From sequence record OR352946.1: a stretch of 64,000 nt of DNA; one strand, given 5' to 3'. The notes below the pieces were generated by a model. That model did no database searches. It was not told the origin of the DNA and was given only the letters and a program-made list of their open reading frames with translations. The position numbers and the translations under genes are program-made. Origin of the DNA: Escherichia phage AV116. How positions within the stretch are numbered: the stretch's first letter is position 1; the number at the start of each line of letters is the position of its first letter. Positions 28,571 through 42,943 of this stretch are shown piece by piece.

Positions 28571-28879
28571 TCAATTAGAAAATAAATTTATCCAAGTTTT
28601 TTCTTTAATCAAAAATGGGTCGGAATTAAACGCCATTAAACTTTGAGTGATTAATCCCTTAAATGGCCCATCAATAAATTCCATTTTGAAATGCGGAATA
28701 CTAGTCATCAACCGTGCATTAGGAGCAGTACAAAGAACCTGCTGCCCTGCGAACGGACCTTTAGTCAAACGATATCGTTTAGGTTTAAAATGGTAAATCT
28801 CGTAATTTTCTACAAGAGCCCTTTTATTGCATACTGGGCTGTTATAACAATACTCAAAAACTTCAATAGTGGTCATCAT
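28571..28879 (-). CDS. hypothetical cysteine-containing protein (vs.7-position)
   Basis: ATG at 28879 in ATGA overlap with upstream stop. Confidence 0.4.
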   Translation of the reverse strand: MMTTIEVFEYCYNSPVCNKRALVENYEIYHFKPKRYRLTKGPFAGQQVLCTAPNARLMTSIPHFKMEFIDGPFKGLITQSLMAFNSDPFLIKEKTWINLFSN

Positions 28880-29415
28880 TGCATTCCAATCACAAAAAAT
28901 TGAGGACGAGCAATACCGCCGATGCAATATTTGCTTTTGCAACAGTGTTGGACTGTTTTAATATGGACATTGTAAATCTTATCCATATCAGGAGCTTTAA
29001 TAGGCTCGTCAATTATGTACAGAATACGAGAAAGCGTTAATCCACGGAATTTAGAACCTTCATTGCCAATAAAACTACGAACAGAATCAGTAAATAAACG
29101 GAATCGAATATCGTCGCTAGAATAACGAGAAAATTCTTTTTTAATGTTGCCGGCAGAAATTTTAGCATAAGCTGAAGTATTAGAAAGAACAATAACTGTT
29201 CCACCATCATACAGCCAATTAACAGCAAAATTAGTTACTGCGGTCGATTTACCTGATTGTCTGCCGCCGTCTAAACGAAGTGTACAGTACTGCTTGAGTA
29301 CGTCTTCAAATGGTGGGACATAACCGTTCTTACAAATTTCTTCTACTCTAGCATCAGAATGGTGTGTAAAAGCATTCATCAGGGATAGATAAGGACCAGT
29401 TAAAAATGTTCTCAT
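28876..29415 (-). CDS. small P-loop NTPase (vs.8-position)
   Basis: Walker A GGRQSGKST; Walker B-like ILYIIDEP. Confidence 0.5.
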   Translation of the reverse strand: MRTFLTGPYLSLMNAFTHHSDARVEEICKNGYVPPFEDVLKQYCTLRLDGGRQSGKSTAVTNFAVNWLYDGGTVIVLSNTSAYAKISAGNIKKEFSRYSSDDIRFRLFTDSVRSFIGNEGSKFRGLTLSRILYIIDEPIKAPDMDKIYNVHIKTVQHCCKSKYCIGGIARPQFFVIGMQ

Positions 29416-29496
29416 TTAGTTTCTCTTTTAGGTTGGGCCATTCCGTGGCGCATGAATTGTCCATTTCTGTATTTACCCCTCCAAGTAATTATGAAT

Positions 29497-29526
29497 ATAC
29501 TATCACAATTCTAGGAGAAAGTAAAC
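29497..29526 (-). promoter_or_regulatory. T4-type early promoter-like element
   Basis: minus strand GTTTAC-N18-TAGTAT. Confidence 0.45.
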
Positions 29527-29528
29527 TG

Positions 29529-29831
29529 TTATTTACCTTTAATTACTTTAGCTGCTTCGATAGCCGCTTGCTGAAGGTCATCCATAGACATACCAAATTT
29601 AGAAGCAAAGTTATCAATTTTCTTTTCGACAGCATTCAAAGGCTTGGCCTGTTTACCTTCATTAGCGCCAGGAAGAGCGAGAATACGCTCTTTGTCAATA
29701 TAAAGGCTTACAAGTTTCTTACGGTCTTTATCGGACAAATCATGAAATGAATGGGCCTTTTTATTTATAGCGGCTTCTAATTTACCTGCACTCACTCGCG
29801 CTTCAGTAATAAATTCTTGATATGTTTTCAT
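29529..29831 (-). CDS. internal protein with capsid-targeting sequence (IPII/IPIII-like)
   Basis: N-terminus MKTYQEFITEARV is the T4 internal-protein capsid-targeting sequence with L-x-E prohead protease site. Confidence 0.65.
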   Translation of the reverse strand: MKTYQEFITEARVSAGKLEAAINKKAHSFHDLSDKDRKKLVSLYIDKERILALPGANEGKQAKPLNAVEKKIDNFASKFGMSMDDLQQAAIEAAKVIKGK

Positions 29832-29861
29832 TTTTGTTTCCTTGTTTGTTTTGATAGAGTA

Positions 29862-29891
29862 ATTATACCATATTAATACTTAAGCGTAAAC
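29862..29891 (-). promoter_or_regulatory. T4-type early promoter-like element
   Basis: minus strand GTTTAC-N18-TATAAT. Confidence 0.5.
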
Positions 29892-29894
29892 AAT

Positions 29895-30155
29895 TTAAGC
29901 TTTACCGCCAGAAATAATTCCGAAGTTGTTAAAATCGTATCCAATATCGTCAACATCTACTTTAGGACTTACTACAACATAAGCAATTTCACTACGTTTT
30001 GCATAGGTGTTGATTTCTTTACCATCGCCACCTAAGAAAGAATACCCATTACGTTTTAATGAGCCAAAGTCTTCGGCATCACCAATGAAAGCTTTAACTT
30101 TAAATTTAGGACCTTTGGCATCTGCTTCAGCGATAAATTCTTGATACATTTTCAT
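29895..30155 (-). CDS. internal protein-like (capsid-targeting sequence), glycine-rich
   Basis: N-terminus MKMYQEFIAEA. Confidence 0.55.
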   Translation of the reverse strand: MKMYQEFIAEADAKGPKFKVKAFIGDAEDFGSLKRNGYSFLGGDGKEINTYAKRSEIAYVVVSPKVDVDDIGYDFNNFGIISGGKA

Positions 30156-30161
30156 TTTTCC

Positions 30162-30575
30162 TTAGTAAATTGATTTACCATAGTATTTGTACCAAGTCGG
30201 ACGTTGAGCAATTTTTTCATCTAAGCGTGCTTGACTTATCGCAATGGACGCTTCAGACGGGACGTAATTATTACGAAATTCTATAGGAATGTCGGAAATA
30301 TCCTGGACAGTCGTGTCCTTGATTTTGAAACCACGTTTCAAACATTCGGCTATTAGCTCGATTTGACGTAAACGTAAAAATTCGAGTTTGTCGTAAAAGA
30401 ATGTTACGTGACCTGTGCCTAAGATAAATGTTGGAGAGATTTTAAAATCCTTTACACGTTTACCGTTTTGAACATGTTTACGGACTGCACCAAATACGCG
30501 TGGTAATTCACGATACTCAGCCATAAGATGTTGGTCGGTCAGTTCAGAAACAAGTGTTAAATTGATACGGGTCAT
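30162..30575 (-). CDS. denV: endonuclease V (pyrimidine dimer DNA glycosylase) DenV
   Basis: from [12 protein letters not shown]; near-identical to remembered T4 endo V. Confidence 0.9.
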
Positions 30576-30603
30576 AATTTCCTCCAAGTAGTTGATGAAT
30601 GTA

Positions 30604-30632
30604 TAGTATCAAAGTCCTTGGAGGAAGTAAAC
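30604..30632 (-). promoter_or_regulatory. T4-type early promoter-like element upstream of denV
   Basis: minus strand GTTTAC-N17-TACTAT. Confidence 0.45.
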
Positions 30633-30633
30633 A

Positions 30634-30915
30634 CTATTTTTCTGAAGCGCCTGAAATATATTTTTCAAGACGCTGTTTCATCAACGAGCCGTTCTTAGCG
30701 ATTTCTTCCGGTTTATCGCACATACGCAACAATGCTTCAAGCTTAGCGATATCGCTGGTACGTTCAAATTTGCGAGTATCTATCTTACTAGCAAGTTCAG
30801 AAATACGTGCTAATAGACTTTCAGCTTCAACCAAAGCTGCACCTAGCTTAGTTGCAAATGTGTCAGTAGCTTCGTTAAGAATAGATTCTGATAAAAATTC
30901 ACTATATGTTTTCAT
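30634..30915 (-). CDS. internal protein-like (capsid-targeting sequence)
   Basis: ATG at 30915 gives [11 protein letters not shown]; ATGA overlap with lysozyme stop. Confidence 0.5.
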
Positions 30916-31400
30916 ATATACGCTTTCCAAGTTCCTGTTTTAAATGTTGAGATTACGCGTTTCGCGCGATTAGGTGTCTGACGATACCATTTAGATTGGG
31001 CTAGATTTACTGCCGCTTCATCCCAACGTTTCTGTTGAAGCATACGAAGAGAATTAGTAAAACCGGCGACTCCTGCTACACCCATTTGGAAGACCATATT
31101 GACCAATGCACACCGACGAACTGCATCTAAAGAATCATATACCGGTTTAAGTTTAGCATTACCCAAGATTCCGCGGACGGCTTTATCAACGTCTTCATTA
31201 AATAGCTTTTCAGCCTCATCAAGGGTAATTGTACCGTTGCATTTACGACCGATCATTCTGTCAAGTTCAGCTTTAGCTATGGCTAAAGACGGGTTCTTTG
31301 TTACTAAATGGCCTATGCCAATTGTCCAAAAGCCTTCAGTGTCTTTGTATAAAGTCAGTCTAAGACCTTCGTCATTACGAAGCATTTCAAATATATTCAT
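30912..31400 (-). CDS. e: endolysin (T4 lysozyme e)
   Basis: from [31 protein letters not shown]; GGGAGG SD. Confidence 0.95.
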
Positions 31401-31434
31401 AATACCTCCCACGTTTATAGGAGGTATTTATTAC

Positions 31435-31893
31435 TTATAGGAGGGTAGTGAGCACCTTATATAATGATTTGCCCATTACATATTCCCATTGAGAAGGTTT
31501 AATTAAAGCGAATGCATCAAATTCAGGAATCTGTCGTCCGTCTGGGAATGTATGATAGGAATTACAAACACTGTTTCTGAATTGCTCGTGCTCTACAGGG
31601 ATGGTATATAGGAACAGATGAATATTCTTATTGTCTGAGTAATGATGTTCACCTAGGTCTTTCAGGAAGGCAGGGTCATATTGTGTAAACCCAGTTTCTT
31701 CTTCGCATTCGCGAATAGCGGCTTCAATAGGAGATTCGCCAGGTTCGACACGGCCTTTAGGAATATCCCACCGATGAGCTAAAGAACCTTTAGGACGAGA
31801 ACCAGTTACACGCCCCATGAATAATTCTTTATCTTCGGTAAGGAAAATAATACCGGCTGATAGTTCTTTCACTTTATTTTTCTTACTCATCAT
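31435..31893 (-). CDS. nudE: Nudix hydrolase NudE
   Basis: Nudix box GRVEPGESPIEAAIRECEEETG. Confidence 0.85.
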   Translation of the reverse strand: MMSKKNKVKELSAGIIFLTEDKELFMGRVTGSRPKGSLAHRWDIPKGRVEPGESPIEAAIRECEEETGFTQYDPAFLKDLGEHHYSDNKNIHLFLYTIPVEHEQFRNSVCNSYHTFPDGRQIPEFDAFALIKPSQWEYVMGKSLYKVLTTLL

Positions 31894-41520: not shown

Positions 41521-41549
41521 TCCCTATAGGCTTGTATACCTTTATTTCA
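41521..41549 (-). promoter_or_regulatory. T4-type early promoter-like element in hairpin
   Basis: minus strand GTATAC-N17-TTATAG. Confidence 0.45.
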
Positions 41550-41805
41550 AATATATTGCGTATTTTTTATAGCCACCAGGCTCGTGTCGAAGACCTTTAT
41601 CATTCGCAAAACGTTGAATGTTATTGAACTGATTTTCATCAAGTTCGGATGTGTCAAATACGAAAAAGTTTCGTTTGTTACCAAGCGTGATATGCGGAGT
41701 TAAGTCAATATTATACAAATTAAGAATATCAGCAATAACCTGATTGACCGCTTTGTTAATTTTCACACCAGATGATTCTGAGATGAATTCGTTGAAAGTT
41801 TTCAT
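41542..41805 (-). CDS. internal protein-like (capsid-targeting sequence)
   Basis: ATG at 41805 gives MKTFNEFISES. Confidence 0.5.
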   Translation of the reverse strand: MKTFNEFISESSGVKINKAVNQVIADILNLYNIDLTPHITLGNKRNFFVFDTSELDENQFNNIQRFANDKGLRHEPGGYKKYAIYLK

Positions 41806-41838
41806 TTTAGGTTCCATTTGGTTGTTTTGATAGGACTA

Positions 41839-41866
41839 CTATAACATAGTCCTATCGTGTTGTAAA
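41839..41866 (-). promoter_or_regulatory. T4-type early promoter-like element in hairpin
   Basis: minus strand TTTACA-N16-TTATAG flanked by GATAGGACTA/TAGTCCTATC. Confidence 0.45.
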
Positions 41867-42178
41867 TTATTTTATGCCTTTAGAAGAAATGGTATTTTGG
41901 CGTTTAACCCCTGTTTGTGAAAAATCGTGGTTATCGATTTGGTCGACTCGCATAACACCAAATGCAGATTTAATTTTAGCCTTTGAACCTTTTTTGATAC
42001 TAATTATCATATAAGTATCATTTTTCTTATATTCGAAATTTGTTACTTCAACGCCTTGATTAGAAATTGACTTAATAATAGCATTAGCGTATTCATCATC
42101 TAACGGACCGGTGGTGTTAATAATAAAATTTTTATCGGCTTTAGTAGCTTCAGCGATAAACTCTTGATAAGTTTTCAT
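41867..42178 (-). CDS. ipI: internal protein I-like (capsid-targeting sequence)
   Basis: N-terminus MKTYQEFIAEA; adjacent to 57B as T4 ipI. Confidence 0.6.
   Translation of the reverse strand: MKTYQEFIAEATKADKNFIINTTGPLDDEYANAIIKSISNQGVEVTNFEYKKNDTYMIISIKKGSKAKIKSAFGVMRVDQIDNHDFSQTGVKRQNTISSKGIK

Positions 42179-42257: not shown

Positions 42258-42943
<686 letters not shown>

What the first reader, a model, noticed from the sequence alone, without database searches (positions are those of the whole stretch)
29529..30915. Three capsid-targeting-sequence proteins flanking denV (internal-protein locus rearranged or expanded)
ORFs 29529..29831, 29895..30155 and 30634..30915 all begin with the MKTYQEFIxEA-type capsid-targeting sequence used by T4 internal proteins, which are injected with the DNA and include anti-restriction factors. 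Two lie on the tk-proximal side of denV and one between denV and e, whereas T4 (as I recall) has ipII and ipIII both between denV and e. Their bodies are unrelated to each other, consistent with a diversifying effector cargo.
Basis: partly seen in the sequence, partly recalled or inferred. Interest (0 to 1): 0.55.

Follow-up and report, generated by a model that had tools for sequence, protein, structure and literature searches.

The report
T-even phage internal-protein gene cassettes
Three small genes around the DNA-repair gene denV carry the address tag that T4-like phages use to load proteins into the capsid for injection, but this is the usual, already annotated layout of RB69-like phages (Mosigvirus), here in a version that has lost one cassette (ipIII).

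Summary
Three minus-strand ORFs (29529-29831, 29895-30155, 30634-30915) start with MKTYQEFITE, MKMYQEFIAE and [10 protein letters not shown]. Each ends in an [L/I]-x-E site of the type cut by the prohead protease. The tag occurs 5 times in the window against 0.005 expected.

The three genes are an IPII orthologue (93% identical to T4 IPII), a member of the RB69ORF125c family (86 aa), and an Ip5-family protein (47-52% identical to T2/RB51 Ip5). T4 has vs.8-denV-ipII-ipIII-e. This window has vs.8-ipII-ip86-denV-ip5-e. That order is the norm for Mosigvirus: 171 phage records cover at least 80% of the locus, and RefSeq already calls these genes internal head proteins.

Mosigvirus relatives carry 3-5 such cassettes here. 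The window lacks ipIII. The breakpoint lies inside the shared tag-coding sequence ATGAAAACATAT, which leaves ipII behind the ipIII-type promoter.

IPII probably blocks a GmrSD-type restriction enzyme, as T4 Ip2 does. The targets of the other two are unknown. Presence in virions is inferred, not shown.

Novelty: already known. Interest: low to moderate.

The parts
29529..29831 (-). ipII orthologue (100 aa; CTS MKTYQEFITE, predicted cleavage ITE|A after residue 10)
   Evidence: 93% identity over 100 aa to T4 IPII and 100% to phage mogra IPII. phrog_7857 'internal virion protein', 4.5e-55. dN/dS 0.29 against T4.
29820..29831 (-). Recombination junction of the ipIII loss: ATGAAAACATAT, the stretch shared by the ipIII and ipII CTS-coding sequences
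   Evidence: Alignment A3. Upstream of the ATG the window matches the ipIII upstream region of G2469. From codon 5 onward it matches ipII. AV118 and SHSML-52-1 carry the same allele. In G2469 and mogra an extra ~620 nt carrying ipIII lies between.
29832..29894 (-). 63-nt leader with a sigma-70/T4-early-type promoter (TTTACG-17-TGgTATAAT at 29890-29862; GTTTAC starts at 29891) now driving ipII. In relatives this region sits upstream of ipIII
   Evidence: Best promoter match in the region, 10 of 12 with an extended -10. Identical to the G2469 ipIII upstream region.
29895..30155 (-). 86-aa CTS protein, RB69ORF125c family (CTS MKMYQEFIAE, IAE|A; predicted mature form 76 aa, pI 6.4)
   Evidence: 96.5% identity to RB69ORF125c; 217 phage records carry it. 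Orthologues start MKTYQEFITE, MKTYPEFITES or MKTYEEFINES, so the first ATG is the true start. dN/dS 0.19 against VR20. Only 9 hits among 1.84 billion representative proteins, and the distant ones are all CTS-bearing. The gene starts 6 nt after the denV stop.
30162..30575 (-). denV (endonuclease V, pyrimidine-dimer glycosylase), embedded in the cassette array
   Evidence: Pfam PF03013, 3.4e-14. 91% amino-acid identity to T4 DenV.
30602..30632 (-). Early-promoter-like element (GTTTAC...TACTAT) downstream of the Ip5-like gene and upstream of denV. It is repeated at 29496-29526, downstream of ipII
   Evidence: Direct repeat D3, 81% identity. GTTTAC sites listed. The 29482-29526 copy is 93% identical to the T4 e-ipIII intergenic region.
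30634..30915 (-). Ip5-family CTS protein (93 aa; LSE|S at residue 10 and the family-conserved LNE|A at residue 15)
   Evidence: phrog_3499 'internal head protein', 2.1e-46. 47-52% identity to T2/RB51 Ip5, 89% to VR20 ip5, 91% to RB69ORF127c. The RB51 annotation itself links Ip5 to RB69ORF127c. The ATGA overlap with the e stop codon implies translational coupling. dN/dS 0.11-0.34. The AlphaFold2 model is all-helical, pLDDT 72.6.
30912..31403 (-). e (T4-type lysozyme), upstream boundary of the array
   Evidence: Pfam PF00959, 8.5e-14. 82% amino-acid identity to T4 e.
28876..29415 (-). vs.8 homologue, downstream boundary of the array
   Evidence: 89% identity to T4 Vs.8 residues 38-219. phrog_1488.
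41542..42178 (-). Second internal-protein locus next to 57B: an Ip7 orthologue (41867-42178, 103 aa) and an 87-aa CTS protein (41542-41805)
   Evidence: Found by the CTS scan. 57B-like ORF at 42258-42713. 67% identity to T2 Ip7. phrog_2667 at 2e-38 and phrog_7673 at 4.8e-49.

Best explanation
The three ORFs are real genes for T4-type internal head proteins, sitting in the vs.8-e interval of a Mosigvirus (RB69-like T-even phage).

Inferred from the T4 paradigm: the ~10-residue N-terminal capsid targeting sequence (CTS) binds each protein to the scaffolding core of the prohead. The gp21 prohead protease then removes the tag at [L/I]-x-E. The predicted cuts are ITE10|A in IPII, IAE10|A in the 86-aa protein, and LSE10|S and/or the family-conserved LNE15|A in the Ip5-like protein. 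The mature proteins of about 76-90 residues stay in the head with the DNA and are injected with it, so they act before any phage gene is expressed.

IPII most likely inhibits a GmrSD/BrxU-class type IV restriction enzyme, as T4 Ip2 does. The 86-aa and Ip5-like proteins are most likely also injected inhibitors of host defences, with targets still unknown.

The interval behaves as an array of exchangeable cassettes. Each cassette begins with the conserved CTS-coding DNA, and some are followed by a conserved early-promoter-like element. Recombination between CTS repeats adds, removes or swaps cassettes. In this window such an event has removed ipIII and placed ipII behind the ipIII-type promoter.
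For: Shown by tool results:
- CTS and cleavage motifs are present in all three, and the motif count is far above chance.
- Family assignments: IPII orthology at 93%; Ip5 family membership; the 86-aa family is conserved across Mosigvirus, Gaprivervirus and Salmonella T4-like phages such as S16, always with a CTS.
- Purifying selection, dN/dS 0.11-0.34.
- Operon signals: ATGA coupling of e to ip5, a 6-nt denV-ip86 spacer, and a strong early-type promoter before ipII.
- The same layout in 171 records, annotated as internal head/virion proteins in RefSeq.
- Cassette polymorphism of 3-5 CTS genes among Mosigviruses whose flanks are 96-99% identical.
- The deletion junction lies inside the CTS-coding repeat.
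- ipII and ipIII are much closer to T4 (dS 0.10 and 0.26; 93% nucleotide identity) than denV and e (dS ~1.2; ~78%). This indicates cassette transfer between genera.
- A close relative with the same allele encodes the gp20 portal, gp21 protease and gp22 scaffold.

From the literature:
- CTS function and processing: PMC9026906, PMC3012670.
- Ip1, Ip2 and Ip3 each inhibit a distinct GmrSD enzyme: PMC12373910.
- ipIII is required to infect E. coli ECOR17, and ipIII is lost during experimental evolution: PMC9391042.
- Mosigvirus DNA carries arabinosylated cytosine and is cut by the GmrSD-family enzyme BrxU: PMC13390438.
Against: - No virion proteomics or N-terminal processing data for the 86-aa or Ip5-like proteins were found in the searchable literature.
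- ip4-ip10 (Ip5 falls in that numbering) were tested against 15 GmrSD groups with no reproducible target (PMC12373910), so the anti-restriction role of Ip5 is unproven.
- The predicted mature 86-aa and 93-aa proteins are near neutral (pI 6.3-6.4), unlike the basic IPII and IPIII.
- The structure prediction for the 86-aa protein failed (pLDDT 40).
- The prohead protease and scaffold genes lie outside the window.
- The direction of the ipIII event (loss versus gain) rests on parsimony.
Confidence: 0.85

Rival explanations
1. The 86-aa and Ip5-like proteins are packaged, but they serve as generic head-filling or DNA-counterion proteins, or as scaffold accessories. They are not specific anti-defence effectors.
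For: T4 internal proteins contact DNA phosphates through lysines and number about 1000 per head (PMC3012670). ip4-ip10 gave no reproducible GmrSD target.
Against: Both predicted mature proteins are near neutral (pI 6.3-6.4, K+R equal to D+E), which suits DNA counterions poorly. Presence/absence polymorphism among near-identical genomes and cassette transfer between genera are typical of accessory, host-range genes. All three T4 internal proteins once thought 'structural' turned out to be specific inhibitors (PMC12373910).
Confidence: 0.15
2. The denV-flanking arrangement is a rearrangement or expansion unique to this phage, and therefore a novel locus architecture.
For: The order differs from T4.
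Against: The identical order ipII-ip86-denV-ip5-e occurs in AV118 and SHSML-52-1. With extra cassettes it occurs in G2469, mogra, ST0, FL31, PNJ-6 and PHB12. RB69 and VR20 also have denV flanked by CTS genes. 171 records cover at least 80% of the locus.
Confidence: 0.02
3. One or more of the ORFs is a decaying remnant: CTS-like N-termini kept by chance or by recombination, but no functional protein.
For: Truncated or internally deleted copies of the 86-aa gene do exist in some phages: JS09-type 114-nt hits and the 60-aa P0011. Many annotators miss the full CTS by starting at the second Met.
Against: In the window all three are full-length. They are 97-100% identical to many relatives and are under purifying selection across genera (dN/dS 0.11-0.34). 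They have ribosome-binding sites or translational coupling.
Confidence: 0.03

Closest known systems
T4 IPII (Ip2), an injected inhibitor of the GmrSD-ECOR21/BrxU-class type IV restriction enzyme
   Same: Same length (100 aa), 93% identity, same CTS and I-x-E|A site. The neighbourhood between vs.8 and e is shared.
   Different: It lies downstream of denV rather than between denV and e. It is driven by the promoter that precedes ipIII in relatives. The host phage has arabinosylated rather than glucosylated cytosines (PMC13390438). Inhibitor activity was not tested for this variant.
Ip5 of T2, T6 and RB51 (a named internal head protein at the ipI/57B locus)
   Same: CTS, a conserved [L/I]-x-E15 site, and 47-52% identity over ~85 residues with a conserved GEIAKNGSxMKxRLE block. 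Same PHROG.
   Different: It sits between e and denV and is translationally coupled to e, instead of next to 57B. It is 8 residues longer at the C-terminus. No target is known for any Ip5.
RB69ORF125c and the VR20/S16 'internal head protein' family
   Same: 96.5% identity to RB69ORF125c and the same position directly downstream of denV.
   Different: Nothing substantive. The window copy is an ordinary member. The family itself is uncharacterised.
T4 IPI* (GmrSD-CT596 inhibitor, 76-residue mature form)
   Same: The predicted mature 86-aa protein is also 76 residues. It is small and mixed alpha/beta in a low-confidence model.
   Different: No sequence similarity to T4 IPI and no significant match to any PDB chain (best E 0.25). 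The fold could not be compared. No IPI homologue exists in the window, although RB69 has one (PMC6024577).
The polymorphic ipI locus of T-even phages (Repoila et al. 1994, as cited in PMC3012670 and PMC12373910)
   Same: Variable sets of unrelated small ORFs that share only the CTS, at a fixed genomic site. They are interpreted as diverse injected defence inhibitors.
   Different: This is the second site (vs.8-e), with a housekeeping repair gene (denV) embedded in the array. Here the nucleotide-level breakpoint of a cassette loss can be read directly.

Membership tests
T4-type CTS-bearing internal head proteins | N-terminal ~10-residue capsid targeting sequence close to MKTYQEFIAE, with aromatic residues at positions 4 and 7 | tested here: met
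   MKTYQEFITE, MKMYQEFIAE and [10 protein letters not shown]. 5 matches against 0.005 expected. Importance of positions 4 and 7 from PMC9026906.
T4-type CTS-bearing internal head proteins | gp21 prohead-protease cleavage motif [L/I]-x-E at the end of the propeptide | tested here: met
   ITE10|A, IAE10|A, and LSE10|S plus LNE15|A. E15 is invariant across the Ip5 family.
T4-type CTS-bearing internal head proteins | The same genome encodes a T4-type prohead protease (gp21) and scaffolding core (gp22, gp67, gp68) | tested here: inconclusive
   Not in the 64-kb window. Present in the close relative SHSML-52-1, which carries the same allele.
T4-type CTS-bearing internal head proteins | Physically present in mature virions in processed form, and injected with the DNA | not testable with these tools
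   No proteomic data found for these proteins.
T4-type CTS-bearing internal head proteins | Located in one of the two known internal-protein loci (the denV/e region or next to 57B) | tested here: met
   Between vs.8 and e. The second set lies next to 57B.
IPII (Ip2) | Full-length sequence orthology to T4 IPII | tested here: met
   93% identity over 100 of 100 residues. phrog_7857, 4.5e-55.
IPII (Ip2) | Inhibits a GmrSD-ECOR21/BrxU-class type IV restriction enzyme | not testable with these tools
   Activity is known only for T4 Ip2 (PMC12373910).
Ip5 | Sequence homology to the named Ip5 of T2, T6 and RB51 | tested here: met
   tblastn 47-51% identity, E 2e-17. 52% and 48% in alignment A4. phrog_3499, 2.1e-46. 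RB51 annotation note.
IPI / IPI* | Sequence or fold similarity to T4 IPI* | tested here: not met
   No similarity beyond the CTS for any of the three. No T4 IPI tblastn hit in the window. No significant PDB sequence hit. The 86-aa model is unusable for fold comparison.
IPIII (Ip3) | Presence of an ipIII orthologue at the locus | tested here: not met
   tblastn with T4 and mogra IPIII finds only CTS-length matches in the window. The ~620-nt ipIII segment of G2469 and mogra is missing.

The most novel reading that the evidence does not exclude
The CTS-coding DNA may do double duty as a portable recombination site. That would make the vs.8-e interval an integron-like array. Injected anti-defence cassettes would then be gained, lost, re-promotered and exchanged between T-even genera: ipII and ipIII here look recently shared with Tequatrovirus, and ipIII was excised precisely at the CTS. 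On this reading, the uncharacterised 86-aa (RB69ORF125c) and Ip5 families would be injected inhibitors of defences that recognise arabinosylated cytosine DNA, and not of the GmrSD classes tested so far.
Probability: 0.3. Interest if true: 0.55.

Novelty: already known. Interest (0 to 1): 0.25.

Why it matters
Internal proteins are the first phage molecules to meet host immunity. Recent work shows that T4 Ip1-3 are each specific inhibitors of different type IV restriction enzymes and that they set host range. Knowing which cassettes a given therapeutic or environmental T-even phage carries therefore predicts which strains it can infect. Here that means IPII, the RB69ORF125c family, Ip5, Ip7 and one more, with no IPI or IPIII found in the 64-kb window.

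The locus adds nothing new in kind. It does give a clean natural example of cassette loss by recombination between CTS repeats. It also points to two conserved injected-protein families that still lack targets.

Tried and rejected
- **Structure of the 86-aa protein.** AlphaFold2 on a 7-sequence alignment gave mean pLDDT 40.2 and pTM 0.25, which is unusable. No fold search was run on it.
- **Structure of the Ip5-like protein.** pLDDT 72.6, pTM 0.36, all-helical. Foldseek against BFVD gave no match with E <= 0.001 (best 3.8), so it was uninformative.
- **Sequence searches.** PDB gave nothing significant for any of the three. Pfam and NCBIfam gave no family above cut-off.
- **Is the 86-aa protein a diverged paralogue of Ip7?** Both hit phrog_2667, and a joint alignment shows scattered shared columns. 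With the CTS removed, BLASTP finds nothing and hhalign gives probability 0.1%. Rejected. The shared PHROG probably reflects the CTS plus PHROG's loose clustering.
- **Is an exact T4 late promoter (TATAAATA) upstream of each gene?** The only exact copy near the locus lies inside ipII (29762-29769), and the window-wide count equals chance. One-mismatch versions precede e and ipII. Late expression was therefore not established from sequence.
- **Virion proteomics literature.** Searches for Mosigvirus, RB69 and VR7 internal proteins found nothing relevant. Key older papers (Repoila 1994; Bair 2007) are not held.
- **Genomic context of distant 86-aa-family members.** The contigs are under 1 kb and uninformative.
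- **A 534-aa bacterial repeat protein (P0023).** It matched the NGYSF..GDG segment at E 4e-5. I judged this motif-level similarity to a repeated segment, not homology.
Full report
**1. What is in the sequence**

The window region 28.8-31.9 kb is transcribed on the minus strand. In transcription order the genes are:
- nudE (31435-31893)
- e lysozyme (30912-31403)
- a 93-aa ORF (30634-30915)
- denV (30162-30575)
- an 86-aa ORF (29895-30155)
- a 100-aa ORF (29529-29831)
- a vs.8 homologue (28876-29415)

The three small ORFs start [22 protein letters not shown] and MKTYQEFITEA. A six-frame regular-expression scan finds this motif five times in 64 kb, always at the initiating Met of an ORF. Dinucleotide shuffles give 0.005 matches on average. 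The other two lie at 41867-42178 and 41542-41805, next to a 57B homologue. That is the classical ipI locus.

**2. Which phage**

The locus is 96-99% identical to many Mosigvirus (RB69-like) genomes. The best matches are vB_EcoM_G2469 (99.1%) and AV118 (99.0%). 171 phage records cover at least 80% of the 2.7-kb query.

RefSeq annotation of SHSML-52-1 already labels the three genes 'internal virion protein' or 'internal head protein'.

**3. Identity of each gene**

*The 100-aa protein* is the IPII orthologue. It is 93% identical to T4 IPII over the full length and hits phrog_7857 at 4.5e-55.

*The 93-aa protein* belongs to the Ip5 family.
- It hits phrog_3499 at 2.1e-46.
- It is 89% identical to VR20 'ip5' and 47-52% to Ip5 of T2 and RB51.
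- The RB51 record itself notes the similarity between Ip5 and RB69ORF127c.
- In T2 and RB51, Ip5 sits at the 57B locus. Here it sits between e and denV.

*The 86-aa protein* is RB69ORF125c (96.5% identity).
- It is found in 217 phage records of Mosigvirus, Gaprivervirus and Salmonella T4-like phages such as S16.
- A profile search of 1.84 billion representative proteins found only nine relatives. The distant full-length ones (P0018, P0019, P0020, P0022) also start with CTS-like sequences and share KNGYxF and DDFxxFGV motifs. The body therefore only ever occurs attached to a CTS.
- Orthologues have Thr at position 3. This shows that the first ATG is the true start. Several GenBank records start at the second Met (84 aa) and so truncate the tag.

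The three bodies share no detectable similarity.

**4. Are they real, functional genes?**

- dN/dS between genera is 0.19 (86-aa), 0.11-0.34 (Ip5-like) and 0.29 (ipII).
- The Ip5-like start overlaps the e stop codon (ATGA). The 86-aa gene starts 6 nt after the denV stop, behind an AAGGA motif. ipII is preceded by the best sigma-70/T4-early-type promoter in the region, TTTACG-17-TGgTATAAT.
- All three proteins carry the [L/I]-x-E motif used by the T4 prohead protease at residues 8-10. In the Ip5 family the conserved site is [L/I]-x-E15.
- The prohead protease and scaffold genes fall outside the window. They are present in SHSML-52-1, a close relative with the same allele.

**5. Locus architecture**

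Among Mosigviruses with nearly identical flanks, the vs.8-e interval holds three to five CTS genes:

| Phage(s) | CTS genes in the interval, with denV in brackets |
|---|---|
| window, AV118, SHSML-52-1 | ipII, ip86, [denV], ip5 |
| G2469, mogra, PHB12 | as above, plus ipIII |
| ST0 | plus a 104-aa Ip10-like gene |
| FL31 | plus both ipIII and the Ip10-like gene |
| PNJ-6 | plus a 109-aa gene |
| RB69 | ORF123c and ORF124c in place of ipII/ipIII |
| VR20 | ip7, an ip86-like gene, ip10, [denV], ip5 |

The arrangement is thus a known kind of polymorphic internal-protein array. The window carries one of its shorter alleles. IPIII occurs in only 261 phage records overall.

**6. Loss of ipIII at the CTS**

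Alignment of the junction (A3) shows two things. The 63 nt upstream of the window's ipII are identical to the region upstream of ipIII in G2469. The coding sequence is ipII-type from codon 5 onward.

The two CTS-coding sequences in G2469 read ATGAAAACATAT[A/C]AAGAATTTAT. The crossover therefore lies within ATGAAAACATAT (window 29820-29831). This removes about 620 nt, namely the ipIII body plus the ipII leader, and puts ipII behind the ipIII-type promoter.

The three CTS-coding stretches at the locus form a 30-nt direct-repeat family of 77-87% identity (A9). A second repeated element, an early-promoter-like GTTTAC...TA(G/C)TAT motif, follows both ipII and ip5. It also matches the T4 e-ipIII spacer. 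At most 90 records have ipII directly next to ip86, or separated from it only by the 340-nt Ip10-like insert.

I infer loss rather than gain, because the ipIII-ipII pair is shared with T4 in the same order.

**7. Cassette transfer between genera**

ipII is 93% identical in nucleotides to T4 (dS 0.10), and ipIII of G2469 has dS 0.26. The flanking denV and e genes are about 78% identical with dS about 1.2. The ipII/ipIII cassettes therefore appear to have been shared between Tequatrovirus and this Mosigvirus lineage much more recently than the backbone. RB69 itself lacks them.

**8. Mechanism: shown versus inferred**

Shown here: the sequence features, the homology, the selection, the synteny and the polymorphism.

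Inferred from T4 biology: CTS-directed incorporation into the scaffolding core, gp21 processing, retention in the head and co-injection with the DNA (PMC9026906; PMC3012670).

Function, from the literature:
- T4 Ip1, Ip2 and Ip3 each inhibit one GmrSD type IV restriction enzyme, with no cross-protection. ip4-ip10 gave no reproducible targets (PMC12373910).
- ipIII is needed to infect ECOR17, and it works without its CTS when expressed in the host (PMC9391042).
- Mosigvirus DNA carries arabinosylated 5-hydroxycytosine and is cut by the GmrSD-family enzyme BrxU (PMC13390438).

From this I assign:
- the window's IPII as a probable inhibitor of a GmrSD-ECOR21/BrxU-class enzyme (confidence about 0.6);
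- the 86-aa and Ip5-like proteins as probable injected anti-defence factors with unknown targets (confidence about 0.5);
- a predicted loss of protection against GmrSD-ECOR17-type enzymes, because ipIII is absent from the window.

**9. What did not help**

- The AlphaFold2 model of the 86-aa protein was unusable (pLDDT 40).
- The Ip5-like model is an all-helical protein of moderate confidence with no structural neighbours.
- PDB, Pfam and NCBIfam gave nothing.
- A suspected relationship between the 86-aa protein and Ip7 was rejected.
- No virion proteomics covering these proteins was found.

**10. Verdict**

However, the feature is the ordinary, already annotated internal-protein cassette array of RB69-like phages.

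The small added value is threefold:
- the nucleotide-resolved loss of ipIII, mediated by the CTS repeats;
- evidence that the ipII/ipIII cassettes were transferred between genera;
- the point that two conserved CTS families (RB69ORF125c and Ip5) still have no known target.

Novelty: already known. Interest: 0.25.

Noticed in passing
window 29820-29894: ipIII is missing relative to the closest relative, G2469. The breakpoint lies inside the CTS-coding repeat ATGAAAACATAT, and ipII now sits behind the promoter and leader that precede ipIII in G2469 and mogra.
   Followed up: yes
window 29496-29843, compared with L003 (T4): ipII is 93% identical in nucleotides to T4 (dS 0.10), whereas the flanking denV and e genes are ~78% identical (dS ~1.2). 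ipIII of G2469 has dS 0.26. This suggests recent cassette exchange between Tequatrovirus and this Mosigvirus lineage.
   Followed up: partly
window 41542-42178: A second internal-protein locus next to 57B holds an Ip7 orthologue (103 aa, 67% identity to T2 Ip7) and an 87-aa CTS protein (phrog_7673). No IPI homologue is present in the window, although RB69 is reported to carry one.
   Followed up: partly
window 30150-30155; L001 2597-2851; L002 3216-3470: Many GenBank and RefSeq records start the 86-aa gene at its second Met (84 aa, MYQEF...), which cuts off the first two CTS residues. Orthologues with Thr at position 3 show that the upstream ATG is the real start.
   Followed up: yes
window 29496-29526 and 30602-30632: A 31-nt direct repeat (81% identity) reads on the minus strand as an early-promoter-like GTTTAC...TA(G/C)TAT element just downstream of ipII and of the Ip5-like gene. 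The first copy is 93% identical to the T4 e-ipIII spacer.
   Followed up: partly
window 29416-29477: The vs.8 homologue starts at the equivalent of Met41 of the annotated T4 Vs.8. Residues 18-35 of T4 Vs.8 are encoded here in a different frame (29424-29477), separated from the main ORF by a stop and a frame change. Either the N-terminus is truncated or T4 is over-annotated.
   Followed up: partly
P0011; hits H97-H99 (JS09, TU01, 172859UKE1): Some Mosigviruses carry an internally deleted remnant of the 86-aa gene: the CTS plus the last ~25 residues (60-aa product, 114-nt tblastn hits).
   Followed up: no
window 29762-29769 (minus strand): The only exact T4 late-promoter motif (TATAAATA) near the locus lies inside the ipII coding sequence. 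The window-wide count (8) equals the chance expectation (8.8), so it is probably fortuitous.
   Followed up: partly
P0023 (534-aa bacterial repeat protein): The 86-aa family profile weakly matches (E 4e-5, five stretches) a repeated segment GAGYSFVDINGDGYPDLID, which resembles NGYSFLGGDGKEI. This is probably motif-level similarity only.
   Followed up: no
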